From the sequence record OP087522.1: a stretch of 44,099 nucleotides of DNA. One strand, given 5' to 3'. Source of the stretch: Escherichia phage TR1. The translations under genes and the position numbers were made by a program. Shown in pieces: positions 322 to 43,577 of the stretch (the stretch's first letter is position 1; each line of letters starts with the position of its first letter). The notes under the pieces are model-generated. The model was not told where the DNA came from, did not search any database, and was given only the letters and a program-made list of their open reading frames with translations.

Positions 322-397
322 TGGTGTTCCGCGCTGGACTCGAACCAGCAACTAAGACTTAGGAGGTCTTTGCGTTATCCTGTTACGCCAGCAGAAC
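322..397 (-). tRNA. tRNA-Arg (anticodon CCU, reads AGG)
   Basis: Hand-folded cloverleaf on minus strand: acceptor GTTCTGC/GCGGAAC (one G-U), U8, D-stem GCGT/ACGC with GG in loop, anticodon stem AAGAC/GTCTT, loop CU-CCU-AA, T-arm GCTGG-TTCGAGT-CCAGC, discriminator A, encoded CCA. Confidence 0.6.
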
Positions 398-2008: not shown

Positions 2009-2051
2009 ATTATGCCTGATTTCTCCGGCGATTGTTTAGCAATTCGTGCTA
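2009..2051 (-). promoter_or_regulatory. promoter cassette copy: palindrome TAGCA-ATTCG-TGCTA (2037-2051), 22-bp spacer, -10 CATAAT (2009-2014)
   Basis: Exact spacing measured in sequence; palindrome overlaps stop codon of gene 2049..2579. Confidence 0.55.
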
Positions 2052-2579
2052 TTGTCCATTCATGAGTAACTTAGCTTTCCTATAAAACTCCATCGCCACC
2101 TCAACCTCTTCCTCACTGTACCGCAAGTGGTATGGTAGTCTACTAGTGTGCTCACCTTCGTATACTTTGAGGTTAGGTTCCCATCTCTCCTCTAGGATTG
2201 CGGGATGAACGTAAACCCTATCGCCAATTAGACATGTAAGATTCATCTTGTCGAGTTCTGGAATAAGCTCATCTTTAATGCGTGCAAATAGGCCAATTTC
2301 TCGCCCAACAAATGGCTTCAACTTGCGCACGCCTTCGTATATGGATTTAACCACGAACACACCTTTCCCGTGCCTTCCCATTCTCCTAATGACTTTAATG
2401 AGCACAGCAAGCTCACTACCTTCGTAGATTGACGACGCATCAGGCTTACCCCAAAATACCTGGGCTTGTCGATACCCGTTCTCATTGATTGCTACTCGTA
2501 GCGGAGGTAAACCATCTTTTTCTGCGATTTCAATTACCCGCTCATCTGTCAGTTTATCTTCGGTGAAATCAAACATCAT
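2049..2579 (-). CDS. hypothetical protein, internally deleted paralog of the 527-aa protein at 5233..6816
   Basis: N-terminus (FDFxEDKL...LPPLRVAINxNGYRQ) and C-terminal block (GKxGKGV...RKxKPF...RIKDxLxPxLDxxNxTCLIGD) align to the ends of the 527-aa ORF; central region absent. Confidence 0.6.
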   Translation of the reverse strand: MMFDFTEDKLTDERVIEIAEKDGLPPLRVAINENGYRQAQVFWGKPDASSIYEGSELAVLIKVIRRMGRHGKGVFVVKSIYEGVRKLKPFVGREIGLFARIKDELIPELDKMNLTCLIGDRVYVHPAILEERWEPNLKVYEGEHTSRLPYHLRYSEEEVEVAMEFYRKAKLLMNGQ

Positions 2580-3124
2580 TTAGCCTCCTTAATCATTTCC
2601 TGGTATGCAGATAGTGCGAGCAGGGCACCTTCAAGTTTTTCACCACTCAAGTGGATAATGCTCGGGGTGACTGCCAAAAGTCGTTTCTTGAATCTCTCAA
2701 TGGTAGCCGCCTCTTTATCAGCTTCCTGTTTCTTCTTCTCCCGATTGCCAGTCCAGTGCGCTCCGTTCTCAATATATATAACAAGGTACTTATCAGCGCC
2801 GTCGCCATCAAATTGCCTTGCGTTTGTCTGCTCCCCTTCGTCATCAATCCAGATAAACTTGTATCGCGCCCTCTTGTTTGCGTCTCGCAAGTCCGTCATT
2901 CGTGACACAGTGTTGTAGATGTATGAGTTCTTAAGCTCAGGTAATGACCTGTCTGCCAAATTTAATATCTCATCTGTTTCGGTGTCATACTCCATTTCCG
3001 GGTACGACCTTCCGCGAATCATTTTGAATATCTGGCTGACTGGAACCTTAAACTCACCACTTTCCGATTCCATCGCCTTTCGTACCATCTCACGGATAAC
3101 TTCACCAAGCGTTACTTTCTGCAT
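2576..3124 (-). CDS. hypothetical early protein (182 aa)
   Basis: ORF track; first gene of leftward transcription unit leaving the 3125-3827 control region. Confidence 0.55.
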   Translation of the reverse strand: MQKVTLGEVIREMVRKAMESESGEFKVPVSQIFKMIRGRSYPEMEYDTETDEILNLADRSLPELKNSYIYNTVSRMTDLRDANKRARYKFIWIDDEGEQTNARQFDGDGADKYLVIYIENGAHWTGNREKKKQEADKEAATIERFKKRLLAVTPSIIHLSGEKLEGALLALSAYQEMIKEAK

Positions 3125-3742: not shown

Positions 3743-3766
3743 ATAAACCCAACGAATAGCACTTTT

Positions 3767-3810
3767 TGCTAATGACATTCATTGGCGGCGGGACCATAAT
3801 GAATCCATCA
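3767..3810 (+). promoter_or_regulatory. promoter cassette copy (plus orientation): palindrome TAGCA-CTTTT-TGCTA (3767-3781), 23-bp spacer, -10 CATAAT (3805-3810)
   Basis: Same architecture as minus-strand copies; leader CCATCAACAACGAGGAGAG then ATG at 3828. Confidence 0.5.
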
Positions 3811-4421: not shown

Positions 4422-4582
4422 TGCTATTACCATCTGAGATTAACTATTTTGATCTGGAAGTTATTAGTTCTTACAGCGGCAAGGGCTGGCCTTGCGGGGA
4501 ATGGTTCAACGAGGACTTGCTTGAATCTCACGAGATTATGCTTAAGGCGATTGAGAAGGCGAGAAATAGCACGAATTGCTAA
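4421..4582 (+). CDS. hypothetical small protein (about 53 aa)
   Basis: Manual translation (MLLPSEINYFDLEVISSYSGKGWPCGEWFNEDLLESHEIMLKAIEKARNSTNC); stop TAA lies in promoter palindrome. Confidence 0.3.
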   Translation: MLLPSEINYFDLEVISSYSGKGWPCGEWFNEDLLESHEIMLKAIEKARNSTNC

Positions 4583-4609
4583 AGCCCTTCGGGGCTTTTG
4601 TTGTATAGT
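4567..4609 (+). promoter_or_regulatory. promoter cassette copy with embedded hairpin: palindrome TAGCA-CGAAT-TGCTA (4567-4581), spacer containing GCCCTTCGGGGC hairpin, -10 TATAGT (4604-4609), leader CATCGAAACGAAA
   Basis: 22-bp spacing measured; hairpin plus T-run in the spacer may double as a terminator for the upstream gene. Confidence 0.5.
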
Positions 4610-7155: not shown

Positions 7156-7186
7156 AAATAGCCCCATTACGGGGCTTTTTTGTTTT
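7154..7186. terminator. bidirectional rho-independent terminator between convergent genes
   Basis: Hairpin GCCCCATTACGGGGC (7161-7175) flanked by A-run and T-run; overlaps the last codons of the spanin gene. Confidence 0.6.
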
Positions 7187-7553
7187 TCCTGAATATTACC
7201 AAAAGCAGAATGATGATGATGCACAACATAATTCCACTTCCAACCCACGGGATTGCAGAAGAATCATTGTTTGTGATTTCAATCTTCTCAGCTGTGATTG
7301 TTGACGCTTTGATTGAGTTATCAGAAGTCTTCTTACCGCTTGAGCTATCAAGAGTGTCAACATTAGAGTTCTTCAACTCAGCCTTTGCATTGGAACTTGA
7401 ATCAACCTTGTTTGTCAGACCTACGCCAACCTTATTGTTCTCCGCTCCAGCCTGGGCGCTAATCTCTGGCTTACTGCCAATCAATCCGGTCAGTGCTGAT
7501 GTTGCCGAACAACCAGAAAGCAGAATCACCGCAGCAATTAATACAACCTTCAT
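7167..7553 (-). CDS. unimolecular spanin (lipoprotein signal plus C-terminal TM anchor)
   Basis: N-terminal signal with lipobox LLSGC and C-terminal hydrophobic helix IMLCIIIILLLVIF in one 128-aa protein; sits last in the lysis cassette, as in T1-type phages. Confidence 0.65.
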   Translation of the reverse strand: MKVVLIAAVILLSGCSATSALTGLIGSKPEISAQAGAENNKVGVGLTNKVDSSSNAKAELKNSNVDTLDSSSGKKTSDNSIKASTITAEKIEITNNDSSAIPWVGSGIMLCIIIILLLVIFRKNKKAP

Positions 7554-8583: not shown

Positions 8584-8626
8584 ATTATACCTAATTGCTG
8601 TGGCGATTGTTTAGCGATTCGTGCTA
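8584..8626 (-). promoter_or_regulatory. promoter cassette copy: palindrome TAGCG-ATTCG-TGCTA (8612-8626), 22-bp spacer, -10 TATAAT (8584-8589)
   Basis: Measured spacing; palindrome overlaps stop of dNMP kinase gene. Confidence 0.55.
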
Positions 8627-9793: not shown

Positions 9794-9836
9794 AATATAC
9801 CCAGATTTCTCTGGGATTTATTAACAAAAAGTGCTA
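9794..9836 (-). promoter_or_regulatory. promoter cassette copy: palindrome TAACA-AAAAG-TGCTA (9822-9836), 22-bp spacer with hairpin, -10 TATATT (9794-9799)
   Basis: Measured in sequence. Confidence 0.5.
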
Positions 9837-12133: not shown

Positions 12134-12176
12134 ATAATACACCACTTCATCAATTCGTCTTTAGCAATTCGTGCTA
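12134..12176 (-). promoter_or_regulatory. promoter cassette copy: palindrome TAGCA-ATTCG-TGCTA (12162-12176), 22-bp spacer, -10 TATTAT (12134-12139) inside an inverted repeat
   Basis: Measured; palindrome overlaps stop of VRR-NUC gene. Confidence 0.55.
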
Positions 12177-14625: not shown

Positions 14626-14667
14626 ATAATAACAGCCATCGAACCCATTGTTTAACAAAAAGTGCTA
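14626..14667 (-). promoter_or_regulatory. promoter cassette copy: palindrome TAACA-AAAAG-TGCTA (14653-14667), 21-bp spacer, extended -10 TGTTATTAT
   Basis: Measured. Confidence 0.5.
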
Positions 14668-16628: not shown

Positions 16629-16693
16629 TGCCTTAAAGATGCTACAATCCAAATTAGCAATTAGTGCTATTTTACAAATGGAGACTTTACACA

Positions 16694-19171
16694 ATGGCAA
16701 TTTATGACTTAGGAACAGCGTCTCTGGCCGCTAATGGCGAGGTGACTGGCGTAGGGACAACATGGAAGGCGCCCCTTACACTGATTAGAGTTGGTGCAAC
16801 CATCGTATTTAAAACTGAACCAGTACAAATTTACACCATCTCTGAAATTATCAGTGATACTCAGATTAATGTTTATAACCCCAATTCTGAGACCGTTCCT
16901 GCCGGAACTGGTTACGCGATTCTTGCTCACGATGGAATTACCGTTCAGGGTTTAGCTCAGGATGTTGCTGAAACTCTCCGTTACTATCAATCAAGGGAAT
17001 CAGAGGTCGCAACAGCAGTTGATGTTTTTAAGGCTTTTGATCAGGATAAATTTTCAAGTGATGTAAGCCGAGTTAACACACAATTTGGAGAAATTACTGC
17101 TATTGGTGCTCAGGTCTCATCTGATGCCGCCAAAGTGACCACCGATAAGAATGCAGCGGCAGCAAGTGCAACCAGCGCATCCGCTGACAAAGATGCGGCA
17201 GCTGCATCAGCGCGGGAGGCGGCAGATTATGCGGCGTCACTTGACACACAGAACATATTAAGAAAAGACTTGGCGCTATCAGACTTAACTGACAAGCCAC
17301 TAGCAAGGCAGAACCTTGATGTTTACTCCAGGGATGAGACTGACTCAAAAATAATTAATGATTTGTCCGAGAGAGGAGGTGAACTCATTAATTTGAAAAG
17401 GGGCGGTCTTACATCAAACTTATCGACTACGATTGCTGATTTTTACCAGAATACAGTTATTAACCTTGTTACAGATTACGGTCTTGTTGGTGACTTTGAT
17501 CCCACCACTGGCGTATCTAACGGAACAAATAACGTCACTGCACTTCAGGAAGCAATCAATGATGTTATTTCCAACGGAGGTAATGTGACATTAAGATTCC
17601 CGTCAGGGAAGTTTAGATTTAAGCGTCTAAACACATACAAGCCAGGTGGCGTAGCTGTTACTTTAGGTGTTGAGGGTGCAGGTTTAAAGAATGTAATTAT
17701 TGAGGGGGATGGATTCTCAACCGAACTCTATTGCGATGATATTGGAAGATTGTTCGGGCTTTATGCTGCGAACAACGTTATCATCCGAAATATGAAGGTG
17801 ATAGGTTACGGGGGCGGTGCTACTTCGCCATCTAGAGAAAGAGACCAGGCATTCGCGTTGGGTTATAAATGCAAGAGCGTCATTTTCGATAATGTTTACA
17901 TTGATAACTTCTACGGTGACTGCATCTATTTTGGTGGAGATCTTGAGAATGGCGCAATAACAGGAAAATTCTCTAGAGATGTAACAGTAAGGAATTGCAT
18001 ACTTAAGGAGCGTTACGGCAACGGCATTCGATCCTGGGACGCATCAGGTGGCGGCACACGATCCCGTTTGGCAATGGCTGTTATCGACGTCGTAGGCCTG
18101 AAAGTACATGACAATATTATTTACGGAGAAATAGATCTAGAACCAAACTCGTCAGGCCAGAATATGCAGTATGTGGAAATCCATGACAATACATTCCGCA
18201 GTGCTGGAGTTATCCCAGTAACCAACCCTTACGAGTGTGAGCCATTGTACGAAGGAACAGCCACGATAAGAGGCGGTGTAACACTGCAAACTGTTGCGTC
18301 AAACTTGACGACCGCATCAATCACAATTCGCGATAACGCAATTGAGTACGGGCGAATTCGAATTACTGGTGGTTCAAATGCAGGTCATGTGTTGTGTCAT
18401 GGCAATAGGATACGTCGTGGTGGGTTTTTTATTGGGCATTATTCTGGAACAAACAACAACCCTAACATGATCATTAGGGATAATCATGTTGATGCTGGGT
18501 TCAATGGTAGTGACGATTACAACATGGAAGACTGGATTACTGTCGGAAGCATCCCTTTAGCTGCATTCTTTATACAAGGCAGCCTTTCATCATGTCGCGT
18601 TATTGGTAATACATGTGGAAGCCAAGATGCTAGTTTTTCTAATATGTTTTATCTTCTTAACACCACGCAAACAGGTGGGGTAGATATTGAGGCGGGCGGC
18701 GGTAGTAACCAGTGGGTGGAAAACATTGCAGTTAACACCACTGCTCTTCGTAACTACACAACGCGAACTACAGACCTTGATATTGGGAACTCCGTAATGC
18801 CAAACTCTGGGGTTGGTCGAACTGAGTTTACTAAGCAGTTAGCGAGAGTATTAATTAATCCTGTCGTTAATGTGACCGTTTCGGGAAGTAACCAGAAGAT
18901 ACAATTTAATACAAATCCCGGTAATAAATATAGATTAACTCATAGTGCAAGCTCTAGTGTAGATGGAATAACTGGCTACACTGAGGAAGCCGGGATGCAA
19001 ATACAAATAAGGAGTTCATCAGCTTCTGCATCAAACACTTTGACATTAAAATCTAGTTCAAGTTTTTATATGAAAGGAGGAGTAGACGCGACCTTGAAAT
19101 CAACTAGACACATTATTATGGTTGAGTTAATAGAGCCAGAGGGGTGGACTGAGGTATATAGAAACTTTTAA
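16694..19171 (+). CDS. tail fibre / tailspike-like protein with right-handed beta-helix (pectate-lyase-like) central domain
   Basis: Ala-rich segment AAAASATSASADKDAAAASAREAADYAAS; repeated motifs NVIIRN, DNIIYG, HDNTF, IRDNAI, IRDNHV typical of parallel beta-helix; GGAGA RBS; start taken at ATG 16694, not the upstream GTG of the ORF track. Confidence 0.55.
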   Translation: MAIYDLGTASLAANGEVTGVGTTWKAPLTLIRVGATIVFKTEPVQIYTISEIISDTQINVYNPNSETVPAGTGYAILAHDGITVQGLAQDVAETLRYYQSRESEVATAVDVFKAFDQDKFSSDVSRVNTQFGEITAIGAQVSSDAAKVTTDKNAAAASATSASADKDAAAASAREAADYAASLDTQNILRKDLALSDLTDKPLARQNLDVYSRDETDSKIINDLSERGGELINLKRGGLTSNLSTTIADFYQNTVINLVTDYGLVGDFDPTTGVSNGTNNVTALQEAINDVISNGGNVTLRFPSGKFRFKRLNTYKPGGVAVTLGVEGAGLKNVIIEGDGFSTELYCDDIGRLFGLYAANNVIIRNMKVIGYGGGATSPSRERDQAFALGYKCKSVIFDNVYIDNFYGDCIYFGGDLENGAITGKFSRDVTVRNCILKERYGNGIRSWDASGGGTRSRLAMAVIDVVGLKVHDNIIYGEIDLEPNSSGQNMQYVEIHDNTFRSAGVIPVTNPYECEPLYEGTATIRGGVTLQTVASNLTTASITIRDNAIEYGRIRITGGSNAGHVLCHGNRIRRGGFFIGHYSGTNNNPNMIIRDNHVDAGFNGSDDYNMEDWITVGSIPLAAFFIQGSLSSCRVIGNTCGSQDASFSNMFYLLNTTQTGGVDIEAGGGSNQWVENIAVNTTALRNYTTRTTDLDIGNSVMPNSGVGRTEFTKQLARVLINPVVNVTVSGSNQKIQFNTNPGNKYRLTHSASSSVDGITGYTEEAGMQIQIRSSSASASNTLTLKSSSSFYMKGGVDATLKSTRHIIMVELIEPEGWTEVYRNF

Positions 19172-20866: not shown

Positions 20867-20909
20867 ACTATACCTGAGCTATCCATTGTTGTTTTAGCAA
20901 TTTGTGCTA
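20867..20909 (-). promoter_or_regulatory. promoter cassette copy: palindrome TAGCA-ATTTG-TGCTA (20895-20909), 22-bp spacer, -10 TATAGT (20867-20872)
   Basis: Measured. Confidence 0.55.
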
Positions 20910-21385
20910 TTTCCGTGATTTCTATGAAATCCCAACTTAACCTCTTCGCTTTTTCTTGCTCTAGCGGCTTCCTCGATTGAGTCAAAACACCCAATGTGAT
21001 ACTCGTAACCATCCACACCCATTCTTGCTACATATTTTGATAGCCTTGGCACCCAACTAACACCCAGAACTCCGGTTTTGTTTGTTTTTCTCAATGACTG
21101 ATTCATGGCATTTCCTTGCCTATTCACCAATCGCAAGTTCTCAATCCTGTTATCATTTCTAATGTGATTTATGTGATCAACAAATAAACCACTAGGTATT
21201 TTACCATTTACGATATCCCATATAATTCTGTGAACCTTGTGCTCCCTGCCATCGTACCTCAACCTTACATAACCGTTAGTCTTACTTACATTTCCAGCAA
21301 CTTTACCAATGCAACCTCTAGTTCCGCTCATTATCTTCCATATCAAATTAACCCCATCGTAATCAAAAATTTCAGACCAGTTCAT
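20894..21385 (-). CDS. HNH-AP2 homing endonuclease (paralog family copy 2)
   Basis: MNWSEIFDY..., HRIIWD...DHINHIRNDNRIENLR, AP2-like GVSW...GCFDSIEEAARAR. Confidence 0.75.
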   Translation of the reverse strand: MNWSEIFDYDGVNLIWKIMSGTRGCIGKVAGNVSKTNGYVRLRYDGREHKVHRIIWDIVNGKIPSGLFVDHINHIRNDNRIENLRLVNRQGNAMNQSLRKTNKTGVLGVSWVPRLSKYVARMGVDGYEYHIGCFDSIEEAARARKSEEVKLGFHRNHGNSTNC

Positions 21386-23002: not shown

Positions 23003-23046
23003 TAGCACGAATAGCTAAAGACTCCGTAATCATCCTTTGCTATAGT
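23003..23046 (+). promoter_or_regulatory. promoter cassette copy (plus): palindrome TAGCA-CGAAT-AGCTA (23003-23017), 23-bp spacer, -10 TATAGT (23041-23046), leader CATCGAAACGAAA
   Basis: Measured. Confidence 0.55.
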
Positions 23047-23086
23047 TACTCCATCGAAACGAAACACACTCACTAAGGAATACAAA

Positions 23087-23317
23087 ATGACTAACTTCAT
23101 CAAATCAGCAATAATCGCGGCAGCAGTAATCATGACTGTAGGTTGTTCTTCCGGACCCCGACCTGACGGTTGGTGCGCGACTGAAGTTAACGGCTCATGT
23201 GTTGCTAAATGGAAAGGAGGTGTAGTTGTAGCTTCAGGTGAAACAGATATCCGCTGGGATGGTATCAAAAACTTCTCTGGATCAGTTAAAGATCATGGCA
23301 CAAAGGAGTGGAAATAA
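23087..23317 (+). CDS. small lipoprotein (76 aa), candidate Cor/Llp-like superinfection-exclusion protein
   Basis: Signal peptide with lipobox (IMTVGCSS); beside the J-like tail tip gene on the opposite strand with its own promoter. Confidence 0.5.
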
Positions 23318-24279
23318 TGCCTCAGGGTATCTTGATAGACTTGAATGACGGAAGACCGAGAATGGAGATAACTGCAGGTTTAAGAGCGCCATCAGTAACA
23401 GGAAGCCTTAGCAGTAACTCCACGTTTAATTCCGCCAATGGCACTAGAGACTTCGGACTAACAATGACTCAAGGATCTGAGGCCTTCATATTGCCGACAA
23501 AGGCTATTGACGTTTATGACTTCAACTTCATACCTGAGGTTTATTTCATGAATGGATTTTCCAGGGTCAATAACTCAACTGGAAGGATAAGTATAGGTAA
23601 CTTTAACGGCTCATCAGGACGTTTGATTGGATTTGGTGCGCAAGGTTTTGAGGTTCTTGGTGCATCACCAGGCAGTGAGGGGTTATTTGTCAGTGATTCG
23701 ACTAACTTCACTGCAATAACATCAAACAGTAGACTCCTGACTGCTCAGTATGTCGGAACTGTGACTGTGAATGGAAGCTATACACTCCCGGTGACTGGAA
23801 TACCGTTTGGAAGGTGGAATAACCCAAATGTCACCCTTGAGTTTGACGGGGAAAGAATACTATGTAGAAACAATACCTACACAGGAATTGATAATGTATC
23901 AGCATCAGTAACTATCGATCTTGTTATATTCAACAATACAGCACCAACCGCAGGGCCTGGTTTAACAATTTCAAACGCCTCTGGCCAGATAGTGTTTTCC
24001 AGCGTCAAGCGACCTTTTGTACTAAGTGGATTCCTCCAGCTTTCCAACTCATACCAATCAATAGGTAATGGGTTTTTCCCAATACTAAGGTGCGGCGCGA
24101 TGGTTGAGGTTACTGGTGGATACAACAACCTTAGATACAAGGGCGTTGCAATGTCAAATGGTCAGGTTAGGGCGCATAAAGGAAGTGTTTATGGTAACTA
24201 CTCAACGAAGTCTGGCGCGCGGTTCCCATTCAACACCAACATCTCAATGCGGTTACCGTACATACCAAACATGTACTAA
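23317..24279 (+). CDS. Asn/Ser/Thr/Gly-rich protein (about 320 aa), function unknown (possible receptor-binding or exclusion partner)
   Basis: AAGGAG RBS; TAATG coupling with lipoprotein gene; start taken at ATG 23317. Confidence 0.5.
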   Translation: MPQGILIDLNDGRPRMEITAGLRAPSVTGSLSSNSTFNSANGTRDFGLTMTQGSEAFILPTKAIDVYDFNFIPEVYFMNGFSRVNNSTGRISIGNFNGSSGRLIGFGAQGFEVLGASPGSEGLFVSDSTNFTAITSNSRLLTAQYVGTVTVNGSYTLPVTGIPFGRWNNPNVTLEFDGERILCRNNTYTGIDNVSASVTIDLVIFNNTAPTAGPGLTISNASGQIVFSSVKRPFVLSGFLQLSNSYQSIGNGFFPILRCGAMVEVTGGYNNLRYKGVAMSNGQVRAHKGSVYGNYSTKSGARFPFNTNISMRLPYIPNMY

Positions 24280-30247: not shown

Positions 30248-30718
30248 TTATTTACCCCCGTGATTTTTGTGATAATTAAGGGCTATCTCTGCGCTTTTTC
30301 TCGCTTTTACAGCCTCTTCAAAATTGCTTGTTGTTAATAGAATTCTCTTACCTATCTTTGATATAAATTTTTTCTTTGTTTTGCAGTAACTAACCCCGAC
30401 AACGCCAGTTTTATTTGATGAGTACATGCTTTTGTTTTTCATGTTATCACTCTTCGTTACCAGTCTTATGTTTGATATGTTGTTGTTTTTTCTAGAGTGG
30501 TCAATGTGATCAATTTCCATGTCATCAGCTATTCTTCCATTAAACATTTCCCATACAACCCTATGGGCCATTACCTTTACACGCTTGTATTGAACGATTA
30601 TGTAACCTCTCTTTTCACAAAAGAAACCAGCAACATCGCCAATATTGTATTGTATTGCTGGCTTTATCTTCCAATAAAGAACGCCATTTCTATAATCAAA
30701 AATATCATTCCAGTTCAT
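30248..30718 (-). CDS. HNH-AP2 homing endonuclease (paralog family copy 3) inserted between tape measure and M-like gene
   Basis: MNWNDIFDY..., HRVVWEMFNG...DHIDHSRKNNNISNIR, AP2-like C-terminus; own promoter cassette. Confidence 0.75.
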   Translation of the reverse strand: MNWNDIFDYRNGVLYWKIKPAIQYNIGDVAGFFCEKRGYIIVQYKRVKVMAHRVVWEMFNGRIADDMEIDHIDHSRKNNNISNIRLVTKSDNMKNKSMYSSNKTGVVGVSYCKTKKKFISKIGKRILLTTSNFEEAVKARKSAEIALNYHKNHGGK

Positions 30719-30789: not shown

Positions 30790-33558
30790 TTAGTTGAAAC
30801 CTCTCAAATAAGCAAAGGCTCTGCCGCCCTGCTGGAAAGACTGAGCAATCTCTTCTGCTACAATTGCCTTAACGCCATTTTGCAGCGCCTTGGCCTGTTC
30901 CGGGTCGCTTCCAATCCCACTATTAACGTTAACGGTTATTCCGCTAACATTAACATCTGCACCACCAGAAACCAAGCCGCCATTTGCATAGCCCGAAGGC
31001 CCGCCTACAACACCGCCATTTGCGTAACCTCTCATCAATGCGTAAAGGTTTTTAACACCAATCCTGCTTGTTGCTTCTTTTGTGAATACAAACTCCCCCT
31101 TATGTACAGTGCCTGCTGGTTGATATTTTCCACCGTCTCCAGTGTAACCGCCGCTAGCAAAGCCACCGCCAATCGCAGATGCGATAGACCCAATCGCGCC
31201 ACCAGTACCACCAAAGCTACTTAAGCTAGACTCGATAGCCTTAACAATAAGAAGCTGAGTTGCAATTCTTGCAATCTGCTTGAGTATGTTTACAGTAAAC
31301 TCCCTGAAGTTTGTTTCTCCAGTGGTTACAAGGTCAGTAATCTGGTCAGTAATGCCTTCAAATACCTTAGTGGTTAAACTTCCGGCAATTGAGAAAGCAT
31401 CTGTAGCGCTTTCAGCCCAGTTAGCAAAGGATTGATTCACGCCAGCAAGCCAGTTTTCACGTAGCGCATCCTCTTGAGCATAGAAATTACGCCTTGCTTC
31501 GAGTAAAGCCTGAAAATCAGTGTCATCTACAGAGCCACCTTTGTTTAACTGATTGGACTGAAGCGACTGAATCTCTCTGGCTCTCTGCTTCTCACGAGAT
31601 GATAATCCGGCGCCAAAACCAATGTTATTTGCTTCGTTGTTGATCTGAAGAATCTTCTTCCTGTTATCCTCAGCTAACTTATTAGCTCTTTCCTGCAAAA
31701 CAATCTGATCGCCAAGTTCAGCTTTCTGCCTTGCTAGTTCCAGAACTTTATCTTTCTCGAGAATAAGTCTTGCTTGCTCCCTTCCTATTGTACCAGCTGC
31801 TTGCCGCTCCTCAAGTATTGCAAATTTAGCCTCTTCCTCAAGAAGCTTTCTCCGCTCAGTACTAATCGCCTTTGTCTGACCGCCAACATCCTGAAGCAAT
31901 CTTAACTGAGCCTCAAGAGCAAGCACCCCTGATTCATAATTGATGGTAAGGTCTCTGGCTTCCTTTGGTGCTTTCGTTTTTGCTGGCTTATTCCTTTCTG
32001 CCTCGGCCTTCTTGGCTTCATCAAGCTCTCGCTGGCGAAGCTGAATAACCCTATTTGCCTGAGCTATAGCTTCAGCATTACCGCTCCTAGCGATTACCGC
32101 AGCTTGCTTCCTGGCGTCTGCAAGTGACTTCTCCGCTCCAGCCACTCGATCAAGAGCTAAGTACTCCTTGCCGATTAGATCAACTTGCTCAGCAACGTAT
32201 CTGTTTCCATCAATTAGAGCCTGATTGACGTCCTTTTCTAGAATGCTTGCAAATTCCTGAATTGCTGCGCTGTTTCTTGCCGCCACGTTTGTTAGCGGAG
32301 AGTTCACAAGGCCCTGTACCGCAACATCGTTGTAGTAGCTTACTGCCTTCGCGTTCTCGAACCAGCTATCCTGAATCTTCGCAGCCTCTAGCCTGTGCTG
32401 CTCTATTTGTGCGTTAACCTGCGTGAAGTTTGAAGCATCTTTATATCGCTCAACCAACTCTCTGGCTTCATCATAACTCACGCCAACATCAATCAGCTTC
32501 AGAATTGCCTCTTGCGCCCCGTCACGTGTTGATACGAATGACTTCGCGATATCTTCAGCTGTCTTACCTGATGCTTCCGAAATCTTAGCGATGCTAACAC
32601 TTAGCTGTCGAGCTGCCTCATCCGTAACCCCTAGCGTTTCCTCAACTGCTTTTCTTGCTGCCTTTATTGCCGATTCGCTCTGGTAAATACTTACCGCAGC
32701 ATAAGCAAAGCCAGCACCGAGGACGCCTGCGGCTACTGTGAGCGGGTTAAGATATGAGAGAAGGAATCTTGCAGTATTGGCGATGCCGCCAAAGCTATCT
32801 TTAATCTGCCCACCTTGCTGGATTGCAATTAGCCATATTGGAATGCCGCCAGCAAGAGATGTGCCGATATCTGTAATCTGTGCAGGAAGCTGAGAGATGG
32901 CATTCTTATATTGGCCGGCACTTAATCCTGATTTTTGGAATGCTGCTGCTTGCCTGCCAAGATTCTCTACCGTCCTTTGAGTTGCCGTTCCAATCTGATT
33001 AATTAATGGCGCTGCCTGCGCTGTTACACCTAGTTGAGATGCCTGAAGCTTAAGGTATTCTTCCCTCGTAAGGCTTGCCGCCTGAGCCTGGCGCTCAAGT
33101 GATGCGATAAATCTATCTGCCGCTGCTTTTGCTGCTGCTTTCTCTTTCGCTGCTTGAGCCGCTGCCCTACCCTCTTCAGTGAGAGCCGCGCGAGAACGAG
33201 CGAGCTTTGCATTCTGCGTTTCAAGCGCCTCCCCAAGGCGGAAAAACTCCTCATCAGGAACTACGCCAGCAGCAAACGCCTTATCAAGACCTACCGCTGC
33301 CTCTTGCAGCTTGCGGAACTTTGCGGCCGTTGGGTCAATAGCTGTTTGCAACTTAGCTAGTGACGCTTGTTGTTCCGCCAGTGCTCTAGCAGTGTCTCTC
33401 GCCTGGGTTCTTGCAACCTGCTCAGCATTAACGAACTCACTAATCCCAGAGGCTGCTTGTTGGTTTGCCTGCCTGAACTTTTGTAGGGATTGTGTACCCC
33501 TGTCTACTTGCGAGACGTCGACCGCTAGCGTGATGCCAGCAATTTCATTAGTTGCCAT
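30790..33558 (-). CDS. tail tape measure protein; ORF track start 33609, likelier start 33558
   Basis: About 920 aa, Ala/Gln/Glu-rich coiled-coil with Gly-rich C-terminus; follows G/G-T chaperone genes; GGAGA RBS at ATG 33558. Confidence 0.75.
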   Translation of the reverse strand: MATNEIAGITLAVDVSQVDRGTQSLQKFRQANQQAASGISEFVNAEQVARTQARDTARALAEQQASLAKLQTAIDPTAAKFRKLQEAAVGLDKAFAAGVVPDEEFFRLGEALETQNAKLARSRAALTEEGRAAAQAAKEKAAAKAAADRFIASLERQAQAASLTREEYLKLQASQLGVTAQAAPLINQIGTATQRTVENLGRQAAAFQKSGLSAGQYKNAISQLPAQITDIGTSLAGGIPIWLIAIQQGGQIKDSFGGIANTARFLLSYLNPLTVAAGVLGAGFAYAAVSIYQSESAIKAARKAVEETLGVTDEAARQLSVSIAKISEASGKTAEDIAKSFVSTRDGAQEAILKLIDVGVSYDEARELVERYKDASNFTQVNAQIEQHRLEAAKIQDSWFENAKAVSYYNDVAVQGLVNSPLTNVAARNSAAIQEFASILEKDVNQALIDGNRYVAEQVDLIGKEYLALDRVAGAEKSLADARKQAAVIARSGNAEAIAQANRVIQLRQRELDEAKKAEAERNKPAKTKAPKEARDLTINYESGVLALEAQLRLLQDVGGQTKAISTERRKLLEEEAKFAILEERQAAGTIGREQARLILEKDKVLELARQKAELGDQIVLQERANKLAEDNRKKILQINNEANNIGFGAGLSSREKQRAREIQSLQSNQLNKGGSVDDTDFQALLEARRNFYAQEDALRENWLAGVNQSFANWAESATDAFSIAGSLTTKVFEGITDQITDLVTTGETNFREFTVNILKQIARIATQLLIVKAIESSLSSFGGTGGAIGSIASAIGGGFASGGYTGDGGKYQPAGTVHKGEFVFTKEATSRIGVKNLYALMRGYANGGVVGGPSGYANGGLVSGGADVNVSGITVNVNSGIGSDPEQAKALQNGVKAIVAEEIAQSFQQGGRAFAYLRGFN

Positions 33559-33595
33559 ATTGTCTCCATAATAAAAAAGCCACCCCGAAGGATGG

Positions 33596-34224
33596 CTATC
33601 GCTTAGCATTCATCATATCTAAAGCTTTCGCTTCAAGTATTCTGATATCGTTAAGTACCATTTCGTCATCATCTATTTTATAGACTTTGAACAAGAATGG
33701 AAGGCAATTATAGTCAAGGCCAGTAGCGCCTGATGCGCCAACTCTCCATTGTGTGGACATTGCACAGTATACGTCCCAGCTTTGCATCATTGTTTCATCA
33801 AAGTGCAACTCTTCAGGCTCCTCACCTTCATAGTCGGAACGTTTCATTCCGATAGCTTCGAGTTCGGCGTCAGTTGGTGGTGACTGGTATTGTAAGTATA
33901 CTGCGCGTTTTAGTTTTTTACTCGCTGACCTGCAAGTGCTTTCATGTAGCTATCCATCAGTGATGGCACGGCGCCTGGGAAAAGGTTTGCAAACTCATCA
34001 ACGTTCTCATCGTTAAATGGCTCTTCTAAGTCCCAGTCAGAGCAGATTTCATTAATCAGTTCCTTAGTACTGAAGTTTTCACGATTAAGAATCTCCTGCA
34101 ACTCGGATGATTTCTTGTGCTTAACGGTCAATACAACTTCAGCATCTTCACCATTCGCCAGTTGAAACTTAACTGGGAGTTTAAAGTCAGGCAGCGCCTT
34201 GAGTGAAAGTTTAAATTTGGCCAT
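33596..34224 (-). CDS. tail assembly chaperone G-T fusion made by programmed -1 frameshift at AAAAAAC (33913-33919)
   Basis: Slippery heptamer at the 3' end of the G ORF; the -1 frame is open from that site into ORF 33596..33847. Confidence 0.6.
33910..34224 (-). CDS. tail assembly chaperone (lambda G-like)
   Basis: 104-aa ORF immediately upstream of tape measure, ending GTA AAA AAC TAA. Confidence 0.65.
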   Translation of the reverse strand: MAKFKLSLKALPDFKLPVKFQLANGEDAEVVLTVKHKKSSELQEILNRENFSTKELINEICSDWDLEEPFNDENVDEFANLFPGAVPSLMDSYMKALAGQRVKN

Positions 34225-34269
34225 CTCGTTATCTCCTTTGTTTATGATTTGGTGATTGTATCACATAAA

Positions 34270-34650
34270 TTATTTGGTGTGGAAGTGCGCGGCTTTATTT
34301 GCAAATTCATCAGTTGCTGAGCCGATTGACCAAAGTTTAGTCATTACTTCATTAATTTCTTTTTGGCTAACATCAGCCTCGCGATTGAATTCTTTGTTAA
34401 CAACCTTAACACTCAGGGTGTAAATCATAACCTTACGTTCGCATTCAATTTCTGACGTTTTCATGATTGCATCTCTCATCTCATGAGCATCAATTGCACT
34501 AACTTTTGATAACTCACCATGAACGAGACTGAAGCTCATGTTCTTACACATGTTTACAGCTTTTGCCATGTCCATTTCTTTCTGTTTAGTTTCACCAATG
34601 TTACAACCAGTTAAAGTAAGTGCGATTACTGCGGCGATGATAGCTTTCAT
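34270..34650 (-). CDS. lipoprotein (126 aa) inside the tail gene cluster
   Basis: Signal peptide with lipobox LTLTGC; own promoter cassette (34687-34729) and terminator upstream. Confidence 0.55.
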   Translation of the reverse strand: MKAIIAAVIALTLTGCNIGETKQKEMDMAKAVNMCKNMSFSLVHGELSKVSAIDAHEMRDAIMKTSEIECERKVMIYTLSVKVVNKEFNREADVSQKEINEVMTKLWSIGSATDEFANKAAHFHTK

Positions 34651-34686
34651 TTTGATTTCCTTCGTTCATTTCGTTTCGATGAATGA

Positions 34687-34729
34687 ACTATACAGCAACC
34701 CACGGCTTAGTCTTTAACAAAAAGTGCTA
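34687..34729 (-). promoter_or_regulatory. promoter cassette copy: palindrome TAACA-AAAAG-TGCTA (34715-34729), 22-bp spacer, -10 TATAGT (34687-34692), leader CATCGAAACGAAA
   Basis: Measured. Confidence 0.55.
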
Positions 34730-34733
34730 TTAA

Positions 34734-34764
34734 TAAAAAACCCTCCGAAGAGGGTTAATTTTTA
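34734..34764. terminator. bidirectional rho-independent terminator after major tail gene
   Basis: Hairpin CCCTC-CGAA-GAGGG flanked by A7 and T-rich runs. Confidence 0.55.
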
Positions 34765-35421
34765 TGCCAGTTCAGAAGCTACAGAACTCAGCCTTCCGCG
34801 GATGGACACCGCGATGGATACCGTTTCAATTTCGTTAACACCAATGCTTGGGGTGTCGTTGAAAGCGATAGTACCAGACTGAAGACGCATCTCCTGTGCA
34901 CGCGGCACGAACAGACGAATTGCAACAACCTGACCTGACTCATCGTAGTTACGCAGAATCGGATATACCGGGTTGGTGTATTCGTGCGCGAACGTGTAGG
35001 TGTTAGTTACCGCAGATTTATAGGTCGGAATCTGCTGTTCACGGTCATCGGACAAGCACTGGAAGTTAACGAATTGCTGTTCGCCACCGTCAGTAGATAC
35101 GTCCTGAACGCACGGAACTTCGAACCAGGAGGTGATCTTGACAACTTCACCAGTTAAGCCAGCCGGGAACTTTGTGGTGCTGGAGGTATCAATACCTTCA
35201 ACAGTTACTGACGTACCAGTGATTGCAGTCACTCGAACTTGCTTGTCAGCTAGAAGCGTTGAAGCAGAAGAGGTGAAAAGCAGGTAATCACCAACGACCA
35301 AACCAGACGCGTCAGATACAGTTAAAACAGGGGTAACTGCGTTAGAAATTGCAGTTACGTCGATTGCAGCTCCGCGAGAGCCTTCTACGAAGACCTGCGT
35401 GCCATTGCTGAGATGGGCCAT
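34762..35421 (-). CDS. major tail protein
   Basis: Position upstream of chaperone/tape-measure genes; 219 aa; strong terminator after it, consistent with a highly expressed structural gene. Confidence 0.55.
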   Translation of the reverse strand: MAHLSNGTQVFVEGSRGAAIDVTAISNAVTPVLTVSDASGLVVGDYLLFTSSASTLLADKQVRVTAITGTSVTVEGIDTSSTTKFPAGLTGEVVKITSWFEVPCVQDVSTDGGEQQFVNFQCLSDDREQQIPTYKSAVTNTYTFAHEYTNPVYPILRNYDESGQVVAIRLFVPRAQEMRLQSGTIAFNDTPSIGVNEIETVSIAVSIRGRLSSVASELA

Positions 35422-42999: not shown

Positions 43000-43506
43000 T
43001 TACGCTCTCGTATTTAGGTAGCCTTTATTTTCAGAGCCATGATTTTCATGATATCCGTTCAATTTGTCATACTGCGACCTTGCCAATGCAGCCTCCTCTA
43101 TAGTGTCCTTGTAGCATATGAAGACTGTTTTACCAAACTCTCTAGCCTGAACAAGCCATCTATTCTCTCTTTTGCACCAGCTTACACCGTTTATTCCGCT
43201 TTTATTTCTTGATGATAGTGATCTGTTATTTGAGTTCTCTTTATTGCTTACTAACCTTAAGTTCTCTATTCTATTGTCACTTCTATTTTGGTTTATGTGA
43301 TCTATGTACATGCCTTTAGGGATTGCTCCATTGTGCATCTCCCACACCACCCTGTGACACCTGTATGCTTTTTGTCTATACTTTAGTATCACATAGCCAA
43401 ATTTATCAACTCTTCCGGCCACCTCTCCAACCTTTGATACATTTGCTACTTTTACCTTTCTTATTAAAAGCCCGTCTCTATATTCAAAAATATCATGCCA
43501 ATTCAT
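43000..43506 (-). CDS. HNH-AP2 homing endonuclease (paralog family copy 4) inserted between TerS and TerL
   Basis: MNWHDIFEY..., HRVVWEMHNG...DHINQNRSDNRIENLR, AP2-like C-terminus; own promoter cassette. Confidence 0.75.
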   Translation of the reverse strand: MNWHDIFEYRDGLLIRKVKVANVSKVGEVAGRVDKFGYVILKYRQKAYRCHRVVWEMHNGAIPKGMYIDHINQNRSDNRIENLRLVSNKENSNNRSLSSRNKSGINGVSWCKRENRWLVQAREFGKTVFICYKDTIEEAALARSQYDKLNGYHENHGSENKGYLNTRA

Positions 43507-43534: not shown

Positions 43535-43577
43535 ATTATCTCATTGATTGGGCCTCTTCTTTTAACAAAAAGTGCTA
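43535..43577 (-). promoter_or_regulatory. promoter cassette copy: palindrome TAACA-AAAAG-TGCTA (43563-43577), 22-bp spacer with hairpin, -10 GATAAT (43535-43540)
   Basis: Measured. Confidence 0.5.

What the first reader, a model, noticed from the sequence alone, without database searches (positions are those of the whole stretch)
34270..34764. Second lipoprotein gene inside the tail gene cluster, with its own promoter and terminator
A 126-aa lipoprotein gene (lipobox LTLTGC) sits between the major tail gene and the tail chaperone genes. It is preceded by a full promoter cassette (34687-34729) and a bidirectional terminator (34734-34764). This is the layout of an independently transcribed insertion carrying a host-interaction or exclusion function.
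Basis: partly seen in the sequence, partly recalled or inferred. Interest (0 to 1): 0.55.

Follow-up and report, generated by a model that had tools for sequence, protein, structure and literature searches.

The report
Swappable exported lipoprotein in tail operon
Phage TR1 carries, between its tail-tube and tail-chaperone genes, an inserted gene for an exported lipoprotein of unknown fold; it is not a virion part and most likely stops related phages from injecting DNA into an already infected cell.

Summary
The window is Escherichia phage TR1 (T1-like, Drexlerviridae, Braunvirinae). ORF 34270-34650 (-) is a real gene under purifying selection. It encodes a 126-aa prolipoprotein: lipobox LTGC, Cys16, Asn at +2, and two invariant Cys in a confidently predicted helical domain that matches nothing in PDB or BFVD, Pfam, PHROGs, NCBIfam or PADLOC. 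T1, Rogunavirinae, Webervirus and Tempevirinae have no gene between major tail protein and chaperone. Braunvirinae all have one, with alternative cargo: this lipoprotein family (rare) or an unrelated 82-aa exported protein (82 records). The upstream "promoter" is one of 12 copies of a phage-wide cassette. That cassette otherwise precedes non-structural genes, including the receptor-linked exclusion lipoprotein at 23087. The terminator is real but lies upstream and ends the tail-tube transcript. None follows the gene, so transcription should run into the chaperone genes. Cargo type does not follow receptor type. It does track a replaced central segment of the tape measure protein, although the genes in between reassort. 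I read it as a moron-like, non-structural periplasmic factor, most likely a receptor-independent block to DNA entry that works like HK97 gp15 or Ltp. The function is inferred, not shown.

The parts
34270..34650 (-). Gene for a 126-aa prolipoprotein (TR1 ORF55, annotated 'hypothetical protein'). The mature part is about 110 aa, helical, with conserved Cys35 and Cys70.
   Evidence: ORF. 100% match to the phage TR1 protein. dN/dS 0.06-0.08. AF2 model pLDDT 84, pTM 0.74. TR1 paper table.
34603..34650 (-). Signal peptide and lipobox (MKAIIAAVIALTLTGC). The Cys16 codon is at 34603-34605. Asn at +2 predicts sorting to the outer membrane by Lol.
   Evidence: PS51257-type rule met in 29 of 32 family clusters, with Asn at +2 in all slot members. 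LPAM_1 18.2 bits. The sorting prediction is inferred from the established E. coli +2 rule.
34657..34663 (-). Shine-Dalgarno AAGGAAA, 6 nt upstream of the ATG.
   Evidence: Read from the sequence.
34670..34729 (-). Promoter-leader cassette: TAGCAC (34724-34729), TTGTTAAA (34713-34720), TATAGT (34687-34692), leader CATCGAAACGAA (34670-34681).
   Evidence: 12 copies in the window against 0.08 expected. Constant 71-84 nt distance to ORF starts. Conserved, with a variable spacer, in Rtp, IME253, AugustePiccard, ACG-M12, EC3a, ES and CY1. Not called by the sigma-70 scan.
34730..34761 (-). Intrinsic-terminator hairpin (34739-34756) with a U-tract, directly after the major tail protein stop codon (34762-34764). 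It ends the tail-tube transcript and is upstream of the lipoprotein gene.
   Evidence: Conserved in relatives. T1 and other subfamilies have a terminator at the same place.
34225..34269 (-). Spacer to the chaperone gene. It holds an AAGGAG ribosome-binding site and no terminator.
   Evidence: Fold z = -0.22. No terminator-like site. Homology with relatives resumes here.
33596..34224 (-). Tail assembly chaperone ORFs (PF08748 at 33910-34224; DUF1799 at 33596-33847), predicted to be co-transcribed with the lipoprotein gene.
33578..33597 (-). The next terminator-like hairpin, between the second chaperone ORF and the tape measure gene. It closes the lipoprotein-chaperone unit.
   Evidence: Terminators are annotated at the same position in EC3a, T1 and Sushi.
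31759..32718 (-). Central segment of the tape measure protein (aa 281-600), directly after its hydrophobic segments (aa 228-292). This allele ('type A') is found with the lipoprotein cargo.
23003..23317 (+). For comparison: the same promoter-leader cassette (23003-23065) drives the 76-aa receptor-linked exclusion-type lipoprotein (23087-23317, PF24052), next to the receptor-binding protein gene.

Best explanation
Shown or directly read. The ORF encodes a Sec-exported prolipoprotein. It occupies a slot, specific to Braunvirinae, between the tail-tube terminator and the chaperone gene. The slot holds one of two unrelated exported proteins. The gene is preceded by the phage's repeated promoter-leader cassette.

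Inferred, step 1. The protein is lipidated at Cys16 and sorted to the inner leaflet of the outer membrane (Asn at +2). Its 110-aa helical domain, probably with a Cys35-Cys70 disulfide, faces the periplasm. It therefore cannot be a virion or tail-assembly component.

Inferred, step 2. It is made together with the non-structural genes, including the receptor-linked exclusion lipoprotein, because all share the same cassette.

Inferred, step 3 (mechanism; least certain). It acts after adsorption and independently of the receptor. It interferes in the periplasm with the channel that the tape measure protein of an incoming related phage must build, and so blocks DNA entry into an already infected cell. 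In logic this matches HK97 gp15 (a moron in the tail operon) and the Ltp lipoprotein, but the protein is unrelated to both.
For: Export: lipobox in 29 of 32 clusters. The two clusters lacking the cysteine keep a hydrophobic signal or anchor. One of them (P0013) is a natural fusion of the 82-aa protein's N-terminus to the TR1-type mature domain. Two Cys are invariant in the mature part.

Accessory, not structural: absent from six other Drexlerviridae lineages. Distant family members (P0031, P0032, BEK12A) sit in the early region after the helicase and VRR_NUC genes, again directly behind the same cassette. GC is low.

Co-regulation: the cassette precedes the helicase, an Erf-like gene, a predicted phosphatase-type gene, small early ORFs, an HNH gene and the PF24052 lipoprotein, and no structural gene directly.

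Not receptor-specific: IME542 has a 97.8% identical receptor-binding protein but carries the 82-aa cargo. The LptD phages AugustePiccard and JeanPiccard carry different cargo, and the FepA phage IME253 carries the 82-aa cargo (PMC8594841).

Link to the tape measure: all 12 lipoprotein-family carriers examined have central segment type A (11 at 79-100% identity to TR1, L008 at 49%), and none has type B. All 5 carriers of the 82-aa cargo examined have type B or B'. In the phage collection, type A at >=89% occurs only in Rtp, AugustePiccard, RobRod40 and MM01, all of which carry the lipoprotein. There are 82 records with the 82-aa cargo and 82 records with type B at >=60%. The chaperone genes between the two loci occur in all four combinations with them.

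[quoted passage not shown] It blocks entry without touching the receptor, and its specificity depends on the phage tail (PMC3594210).
Against: No experiment exists, and there is no sequence or fold similarity to any exclusion protein.

The link to the tape measure may be history rather than selection. The sample is small and phylogenetically clustered, and I did not match the 82-versus-82 counts record by record.

The chimera L009 combines the TR1-type mature domain with a type B' tape measure. BEK12A has a distant family member but a B-like central segment.

Within type A, TR1's segment is 98% identical to Rtp's although the two lipoproteins are only 31% identical. There is therefore no fine-scale co-variation.

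dN/dS is low and shows no sign of an arms race.

Timing of expression is inferred from a motif whose 22-nt spacing is not canonical for sigma-70.
Confidence: 0.4

Rival explanations
1. A receptor-blocking exclusion lipoprotein of the Llp / Cor / Rtp45 kind. It would bind the periplasmic face of an outer-membrane receptor and change its surface loops so that phages cannot adsorb.
For: It is a phage-encoded outer-membrane lipoprotein in a virulent siphophage, driven by the same cassette as the PF24052 lipoprotein. This is the only experimentally established role for such lipoproteins in this group (PMC12685063).
Against: TR1 already has the cognate lipoprotein next to its receptor-binding protein gene. 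Cargo type does not follow receptor-binding protein or receptor. The mature protein is about 12 kDa and helical, against about 6 kDa for Rtp45. There is no PF24052 match. It could still block a receptor used by competing phages.
Confidence: 0.12
2. A periplasmic regulator of lysis or of envelope integrity, for example one that delays or tunes the SAR endolysin or u-spanin, or protects against lysis from without.
For: It is exported. Distant relatives lie beside the lysis cassette: P0032 is convergent with the spanin gene. Membrane anchoring is interchangeable: outer-membrane lipid, Asp at +2 in P0031, or a signal anchor in P0013 and P0030.
Confidence: 0.12
3. An inhibitor or decoy for a host periplasmic factor, such as an envelope-stress sensor, a protease, a nuclease or an envelope-located defence. 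On this reading the link to the tape measure is only shared ancestry.
For: A periplasmic location and a new fold are compatible with many targets. The exceptions to the tape measure link (L009, BEK12A) fit a history-only explanation.
Against: No PADLOC or other family match. No host homologues: only 5 clusters among 1.84 billion representatives, all in T1-like phage contigs. There is no positive evidence for any target.
Confidence: 0.2
4. A tail structural or tail-assembly protein, as its position in the tail module might suggest.
For: Only its position between the major tail protein and the chaperone genes.
Against: The signal peptide and lipobox send it out of the cytoplasm, where tails are assembled. 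It is absent from T1 and four other lineages with the same tail module. It is replaceable by an unrelated 82-aa protein. Distant members lie in the early region.
Confidence: 0.02

Closest known systems
HK97 gp15 moron (YebO-like superinfection exclusion protein)
   Same: An extra gene inside the tail operon, next to the chaperone and tape measure genes. It encodes a small envelope protein. It blocks entry without touching the receptor, and its specificity depends on the phage tail (PMC3594210). In TR1, cargo type tracks the central segment of the tape measure.
   Different: gp15 is an inner-membrane protein related to host YebO, is expressed from a prophage, and lies between the chaperone and tape measure genes. 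The TR1 protein is an outer-membrane lipoprotein with no host relatives, in a virulent phage, and lies between the tail tube and chaperone genes. It has no downstream terminator of its own. Its exclusion activity is untested.
Ltp lipoprotein of Streptococcus thermophilus phage TP-J34
   Same: A phage-encoded lipoprotein with a helical extracytoplasmic domain. From my own knowledge (Bebeacua et al. 2013, not read here), it blocks DNA injection by targeting the tape measure protein.
Rtp45 / Cor / Llp receptor-linked exclusion lipoproteins (PF24052 and relatives)
   Same: Outer-membrane lipoproteins of virulent T1- and T5-like phages. TR1's own member (23087-23317) uses the same promoter cassette.
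   Different: They are about 6-8 kDa, encoded next to the receptor-binding protein gene, and co-vary with the receptor. Rtp45 binds LptDE (PMC12685063). The slot protein meets none of these points.
Rtp34 and its relatives in AugustePiccard, MM01 and RobRod40 (UniRef name 'Lipoprotein')
   Same: True homologues: 31% identity, the same slot, the same lipobox, the same two cysteines and the same predicted fold (TM-score 0.71).
   Different: A different clade of the family. Also uncharacterised.

Membership tests
Bacterial lipoprotein (SPase II substrate, PROSITE PS51257) | Positively charged N-terminus, hydrophobic core, and lipobox [LVI][ASTVI][GAS]C with the Cys at position 15-35. | tested here: met
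   MK-AIIAAVIALTL-TGC, Cys16. The rule is met in 29 of 32 family clusters. Pfam LPAM_1 scores 18.2 bits against a 20-bit cut-off.
Bacterial lipoprotein (SPase II substrate, PROSITE PS51257) | Actual lipid modification and globomycin-sensitive processing. | not testable with these tools
   Needs palmitate labelling or globomycin treatment.
Moron (Juhala/Hendrix sense) | An extra gene absent from related phages at the same position. | tested here: met
   No gene between the major tail protein and the chaperone in T1, C119, Sd1, Sushi, tunzivis or BEK12A. Homology breakpoints flank the ORF.
Moron (Juhala/Hendrix sense) | Own promoter. | tested here: inconclusive
   A conserved repeated cassette is present. 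It is not sigma-70-canonical, and there are no transcript data.
Moron (Juhala/Hendrix sense) | Own downstream terminator (an independent transcription unit). | tested here: not met
   No hairpin or terminator between the stop codon and the chaperone gene. The next terminator is at 33597-33578.
Moron (Juhala/Hendrix sense) | Base composition unlike the neighbouring genes. | tested here: met
   GC 38.1% against 42-50% in the flanks. GC3 36% against 41-49%.
Receptor-linked exclusion lipoproteins (Llp / Cor / Rtp45; PF24052) | Sequence membership in the family. | tested here: not met
   No Pfam or PHROG match for the slot protein. The 23087-23317 ORF matches PF24052 at E 1e-35.
Receptor-linked exclusion lipoproteins (Llp / Cor / Rtp45; PF24052) | Encoded beside the receptor-binding protein gene and co-varying with receptor specificity. 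| tested here: not met
   The gene is 10 kb from the receptor-binding protein gene. IME542 shares that protein at 97.8% identity but not the cargo. LptD phages carry either cargo.
HK97 gp15 / YebO-type exclusion protein | Homology to YebO and a single inner-membrane helix. | tested here: not met
   No Pfam hit of any kind apart from the lipid-attachment site. The protein is a lipoprotein, not a transmembrane protein.
HK97 gp15 / YebO-type exclusion protein | Blocks DNA entry with a specificity set by the phage tail or tape measure. | tested here: inconclusive
   Cargo type tracks the central tape measure segment, with exceptions (L009, BEK12A). There is no functional test.
Spanin (o-spanin or u-spanin) | A lipoprotein in the lysis cassette. 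A u-spanin also has a C-terminal transmembrane helix. | tested here: not met
   The gene is not near the lysis genes and has no C-terminal hydrophobic segment. TR1's u-spanin is at 7167-7553.

The most novel reading that the evidence does not exclude
The slot between tail tube and chaperone in Braunvirinae may be a dedicated site for periplasmic 'injection-immunity' proteins matched to the phage's own tape measure allele. Two unrelated exported proteins would each be kept paired by selection with one central tape measure segment: the lipoprotein with type A, and the 82-aa protein with type B. Each would block channel formation by incoming phages of the same type. That would be a receptor-independent exclusion system in virulent Gram-negative phages, with a new fold. 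It would also mark the tape measure region that is exposed in the periplasm during injection.
Probability: 0.25. Interest if true: 0.7.

Novelty: new variant of a known kind. Interest (0 to 1): 0.5.

Why it matters
It is poorly understood how siphophage DNA crosses the periplasm, and which part of the tape measure protein is exposed there. A small exported protein whose presence tracks one central tape measure segment gives a direct handle on this. It can be expressed alone, exclusion can be tested against phages that share either a receptor or a tape measure type, and escape mutants can be mapped.

Practically, T1-like phages are stubborn contaminants of fermentations, and TR1 was isolated as one. 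They are also used in phage cocktails. An entry block that does not depend on the receptor would affect which phages can be combined, and it could be used to protect production strains.

If the function is something else, the result is still a clean example of a cargo slot with a fixed promoter cassette in a virulent phage.

Tried and rejected
Family searches with Pfam, PHROGs, NCBIfam and PADLOC, and a PDB sequence search with a family profile, gave nothing beyond the lipid-attachment site.

A profile search of 1.84 billion representatives found only 5 clusters, so there are no host or prophage relatives to borrow a function from.

I tested whether the 82-aa alternative cargo is a diverged relative. 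hhalign gave probability 0.1%, so it is unrelated.

I tested linkage to receptor type and rejected it.

I looked for an enzymatic domain in the variable tape measure segment, which would have suggested a Spackle-like inhibitor. There is none, only TMP_2 and coiled-coil-like sequence.

I tested whether the tape measure link extends to the distant family member in BEK12A. It does not.

IMG/VR scans added only genomes already held. Rfam and tRNA scans found nothing in the region. The Rtp genome paper (PMC1367250) is not held. No paper mentions rtp34 as a phage gene.

Full report
IDENTITY OF THE WINDOW. The target ORF's product is 100% identical to a 'hypothetical protein [Escherichia phage TR1]' on a 44,099-bp contig. 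The TR1 paper lists it as ORF55, hypothetical, with AugustePiccard as best hit at 31% identity (PMC10450929). Relatives found by DNA search are Drexlerviridae of the subfamily Braunvirinae: Rtp, IME253, ACG-M12, CY1 and others.

THE OBSERVATION. ORF 34270-34650 (-) encodes 126 aa beginning MKAIIAAVIALTLTGC.
- It lies between the major tail protein (34762-35421, PF08813) and the tail assembly chaperone (33910-34224, PF08748). The chaperone is followed by a DUF1799 ORF and the tape measure gene.
- The N-terminus meets the PROSITE-type lipoprotein rule, with Cys16. Pfam LPAM_1 is just below its cut-off.
- The hairpin at 34739-34756 is terminator-like on both strands and stable (-12.7 kcal/mol, z = -2.9).
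- The sigma-70 scan found no promoter at 34687-34729. TTGTTA and TATAGT are 22 nt apart.
- The stretch is nevertheless one copy of a cassette, TAGCAC-N3-TTGYTAAA-N20-TATAGT-N5-CATCGAAACGAA. It occurs 12 times in the window at <=1 mismatch, against 0.08 expected.
- Eleven copies lie 71-84 nt upstream of an ORF that has a ribosome-binding site. These ORFs are the helicase, an Erf-like gene, a predicted phosphatase-type gene, small early ORFs, an HNH gene, the 76-aa PF24052 lipoprotein at 23087, and the target gene. None directly precedes a structural gene.
- T1 has at least 9 copies, in the left-end region upstream of the terminase genes and among the replication genes.
- In relatives, the two blocks of the cassette are conserved while the spacer between them varies. 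That pattern is typical of a promoter.
- The terminator lies upstream of the cassette, directly after the major tail protein stop codon. No hairpin follows the lipoprotein gene. The next terminator is at 33597-33578, after the chaperone ORFs.
- The predicted unit is therefore cassette, lipoprotein, two chaperone ORFs, terminator. It is not a self-contained gene.
- The window holds three lipoprotein ORFs in all. The other two are the u-spanin (7167-7553) and the PF24052 lipoprotein.

IS IT A REAL GENE AND AN INSERTION?
- Thirty clusters of close homologues exist among 5.8 billion proteins.
- dN/dS against three contigs is 0.06-0.08, with dS (1.2-1.6) higher than in the flanking genes (0.55-0.8).
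- All close homologues examined lie in the same slot.
- T1 (Tunavirinae), C119 and Sd1 (Rogunavirinae), Sushi (Webervirus), and tunzivis and BEK12A (Tempevirinae) go from major tail protein and terminator straight to the chaperone, within 43-113 nt.
- Every Braunvirinae genome examined has a gene there, but the cargo differs. 82 phage records carry an unrelated 82-88-aa protein (phrog_22925). It has an N-terminal hydrophobic segment and two Cys. hhalign against the lipoprotein family gives probability 0.1%.
- Only Rtp, AugustePiccard, MM01 and RobRod40 carry the Rtp34 clade of the lipoprotein family.
- DNA homology between TR1 and its relatives stops at 34666, or at 34634 for Rtp-type phages, where it runs 17 nt into the signal peptide. 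It resumes at 34226-34264.
- The gene's GC is 38.1%, against 42-50% for its neighbours.

THE PROTEIN.
- The alignment shows an invariant N-x-C-x-N motif around Cys35, an invariant Cys70, and a conserved C-terminal Lys.
- Asn follows the lipid-modified Cys in every slot member. By the E. coli +2 rule this means outer-membrane sorting (established knowledge; an inference here).
- Two clusters have lost the lipobox Cys but keep a hydrophobic N-terminus. P0030 is one. P0013 is a natural fusion of the 82-aa protein's N-terminus to the TR1-type mature domain.
- The mature domain is therefore always exported, but its anchor is interchangeable.
- AlphaFold2 with 19 sequences gives pLDDT 84 and pTM 0.74: a bundle of helices 28-50, 52-57, 59-77, 96-105 and 108-123, with two short strands.
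- Nothing was found in Pfam, PHROGs, NCBIfam, PADLOC or PDB sequences.
- A family profile run against 1.84 billion representatives finds 5 clusters. The two distant ones (P0031, P0032) are lipoproteins of other T1-like phages.
- Those two are encoded in the early region after the helicase and VRR_NUC genes and near the lysis genes, each directly behind the same cassette. BEK12A is a cultured example.
- The gene thus moves within Drexlerviridae genomes together with a cassette copy, and it is not tied to tail genes.

WHAT IT IS NOT. It is not a virion or assembly protein, because it is exported, dispensable in other lineages and replaceable. It is not a spanin. It is also not a receptor-specific exclusion lipoprotein of the Rtp45 / Cor / Llp kind:
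- TR1 has such a gene beside its receptor-binding protein gene.
- IME542 shares that receptor-binding protein at 97.8% identity yet carries the 82-aa cargo.
- The LptD phages AugustePiccard and JeanPiccard carry different cargo, and the FepA phage IME253 carries the 82-aa cargo.

A LEAD TO MECHANISM. Cargo type tracks the central part of the tape measure protein.
- Rtp and AugustePiccard against IME253: major tail protein 94-99%, chaperone 95-98%, second chaperone ORF 99-100%, tape measure aa 1-150 96-97%. Tape measure aa 280-380 is only 21-24% identical.
- TR1 against CY1 and ES: chaperones 95-99%, central segment 15-18%.
- The replaced segment runs from about aa 281 to 520-600, directly after the hydrophobic segments at aa 228-292.
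- All 12 lipoprotein-family carriers examined have 'type A' and none has type B. Eleven are 79-100% identical to TR1; L008, with the P0014 subtype, is 49%.
- All 5 carriers of the 82-aa cargo examined have type B or B'.
- In the phage collection, type A at >=89% occurs only in the four lipoprotein carriers.
- 82 records have type B at >=60%, the same number as carry the 82-aa cargo. I did not match these lists record by record.
- The two chaperone types that lie between the loci occur with both pairs, so recombination has separated each locus from the chaperones but not from the other locus. That pattern is expected if mismatched pairs are selected against.
- Caveats. The sample is small and clustered. 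The chimera L009 pairs a TR1-type mature domain with type B'. BEK12A has a distant family member with a B-like segment. Within type A there is no fine-scale co-variation: TR1 and Rtp segments are 98% identical while the lipoproteins are 31% identical.
- The variable segment has no enzymatic domain.

BEST READING. The gene is a moron-like accessory gene encoding a periplasm-facing outer-membrane lipoprotein. It is expressed with the phage's non-structural genes. It most likely blocks DNA entry by incoming related phages at the tape measure step, independently of the receptor.

The closest precedent is HK97 gp15. [quoted passage not shown] It excludes without touching the receptor, and its specificity depends on the tail (PMC3594210). 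Ltp of TP-J34 is a lipoprotein reported to target the tape measure (my own knowledge). Neither is homologous to the TR1 protein.

I put 0.4 on this mechanism. I put about 0.9 on the more general statement that this is an exported, non-structural accessory protein sitting in a swap slot. The rivals are listed separately: a block of a competitor's receptor, a lysis or envelope regulator, an inhibitor of a host periplasmic factor, and a structural role.

NOVELTY. The family is unannotated and has no known fold relative. Phage exclusion lipoproteins and morons in tail operons are both known kinds. What is new is the combination: a virulent phage, a fixed promoter cassette with swappable exported cargo, and an apparent pairing with a tape measure allele. 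I rate it a new variant of a known kind and of moderate interest. The interest would rise if the pairing with the tape measure proves functional.

Noticed in passing
window 2035-2051, 3757-3773, 4567-4583, 8610-8626, 9820-9836, 12160-12176, 14651-14667, 16653-16669, 20893-20909, 23003-23019, 34713-34729, 43561-43577: A phage-wide promoter-leader cassette, TAGCAC-N3-TTGYTAAA-N20-TATAGT-N5-CATCGAAACGAA. There are 12 copies against 0.08 expected. It also occurs in T1 (at least 9 copies) and other Drexlerviridae. The 22-nt distance between TTGYTA and TATAGT is not canonical for sigma-70. Some copies hold a terminator-like hairpin inside the spacer (for example 4576-4609).
   Followed up: partly
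window 23003-24279 (+): A 76-aa PF24052 lipoprotein (23087-23317) and a 320-aa DUF6453 receptor-binding-type protein (23317-24279) lie downstream of the gpJ-like gene, on the opposite strand. They are driven by the same cassette. This is the likely receptor-specific exclusion and receptor-binding pair of TR1.
   Followed up: partly
window 33578-33597 (-) and 33596-34224 (-): A second terminator-like hairpin lies between the DUF1799 ORF and the tape measure gene, so the chaperone genes sit between two terminators, as in T1, Sushi and EC3a. In TR1 the two chaperone ORFs are 62 nt apart. In Rtp-type phages they are 8 nt apart. These are two distinct chaperone haplotypes.
   Followed up: partly
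window 30790-33558 (-), aa 281-600 = 31759-32718: The tape measure protein has a replaced central segment. Type A proteins are about 920 aa and type B about 990 aa, and the segment is 17-38% identical between the types. The N- and C-terminal parts are conserved.
   Followed up: yes
L009 3001-3426 (ENA ERZ27279256 contig k141_176850): A natural chimera: the N-terminal hydrophobic segment of the 82-aa cargo (ACG-M12 type) fused at a Gly-Glu junction to the TR1-type mature lipoprotein domain. The lipobox cysteine is absent.
   Followed up: partly
L002 (phage CY1) about 2496-2780, minus strand: In CY1 the slot holds an extra unannotated ORF of about 47 aa (MILIGMLTAFFYYATGLTFWVSLGAAIGTYFVSALLALIVRALRNR), very hydrophobic, between the cassette and the 82-aa gene.
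   Followed up: no
L016 (T1) 18797-18871; L023 (tunzivis) intergenic: In T1 and tunzivis, the spacer between the major tail protein and chaperone genes carries the TAGCAC...TTGTTAA block in the opposite orientation, antisense to the tail genes.
   Followed up: no
window 30248-30718 (-), 20894-21385 (-), 43000-43506 (-): HNH homing-endonuclease-like ORFs (N-termini MNWNDIFDYRNG, MNWSEIFDYDG, MNWHDIFEYRDG) are inserted in the tail, recombination and packaging regions. The one at 43506 has its own cassette copy.
   Followed up: no
window 322-397 (-): A tRNA-Arg gene with anticodon CCU.
   Followed up: no
whole window; PMC10450929: The TR1 paper reports podovirus morphology with a 9-nm tail. The genome, however, encodes a complete siphovirus tail module, including a 922-aa tape measure protein.
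   Followed up: no
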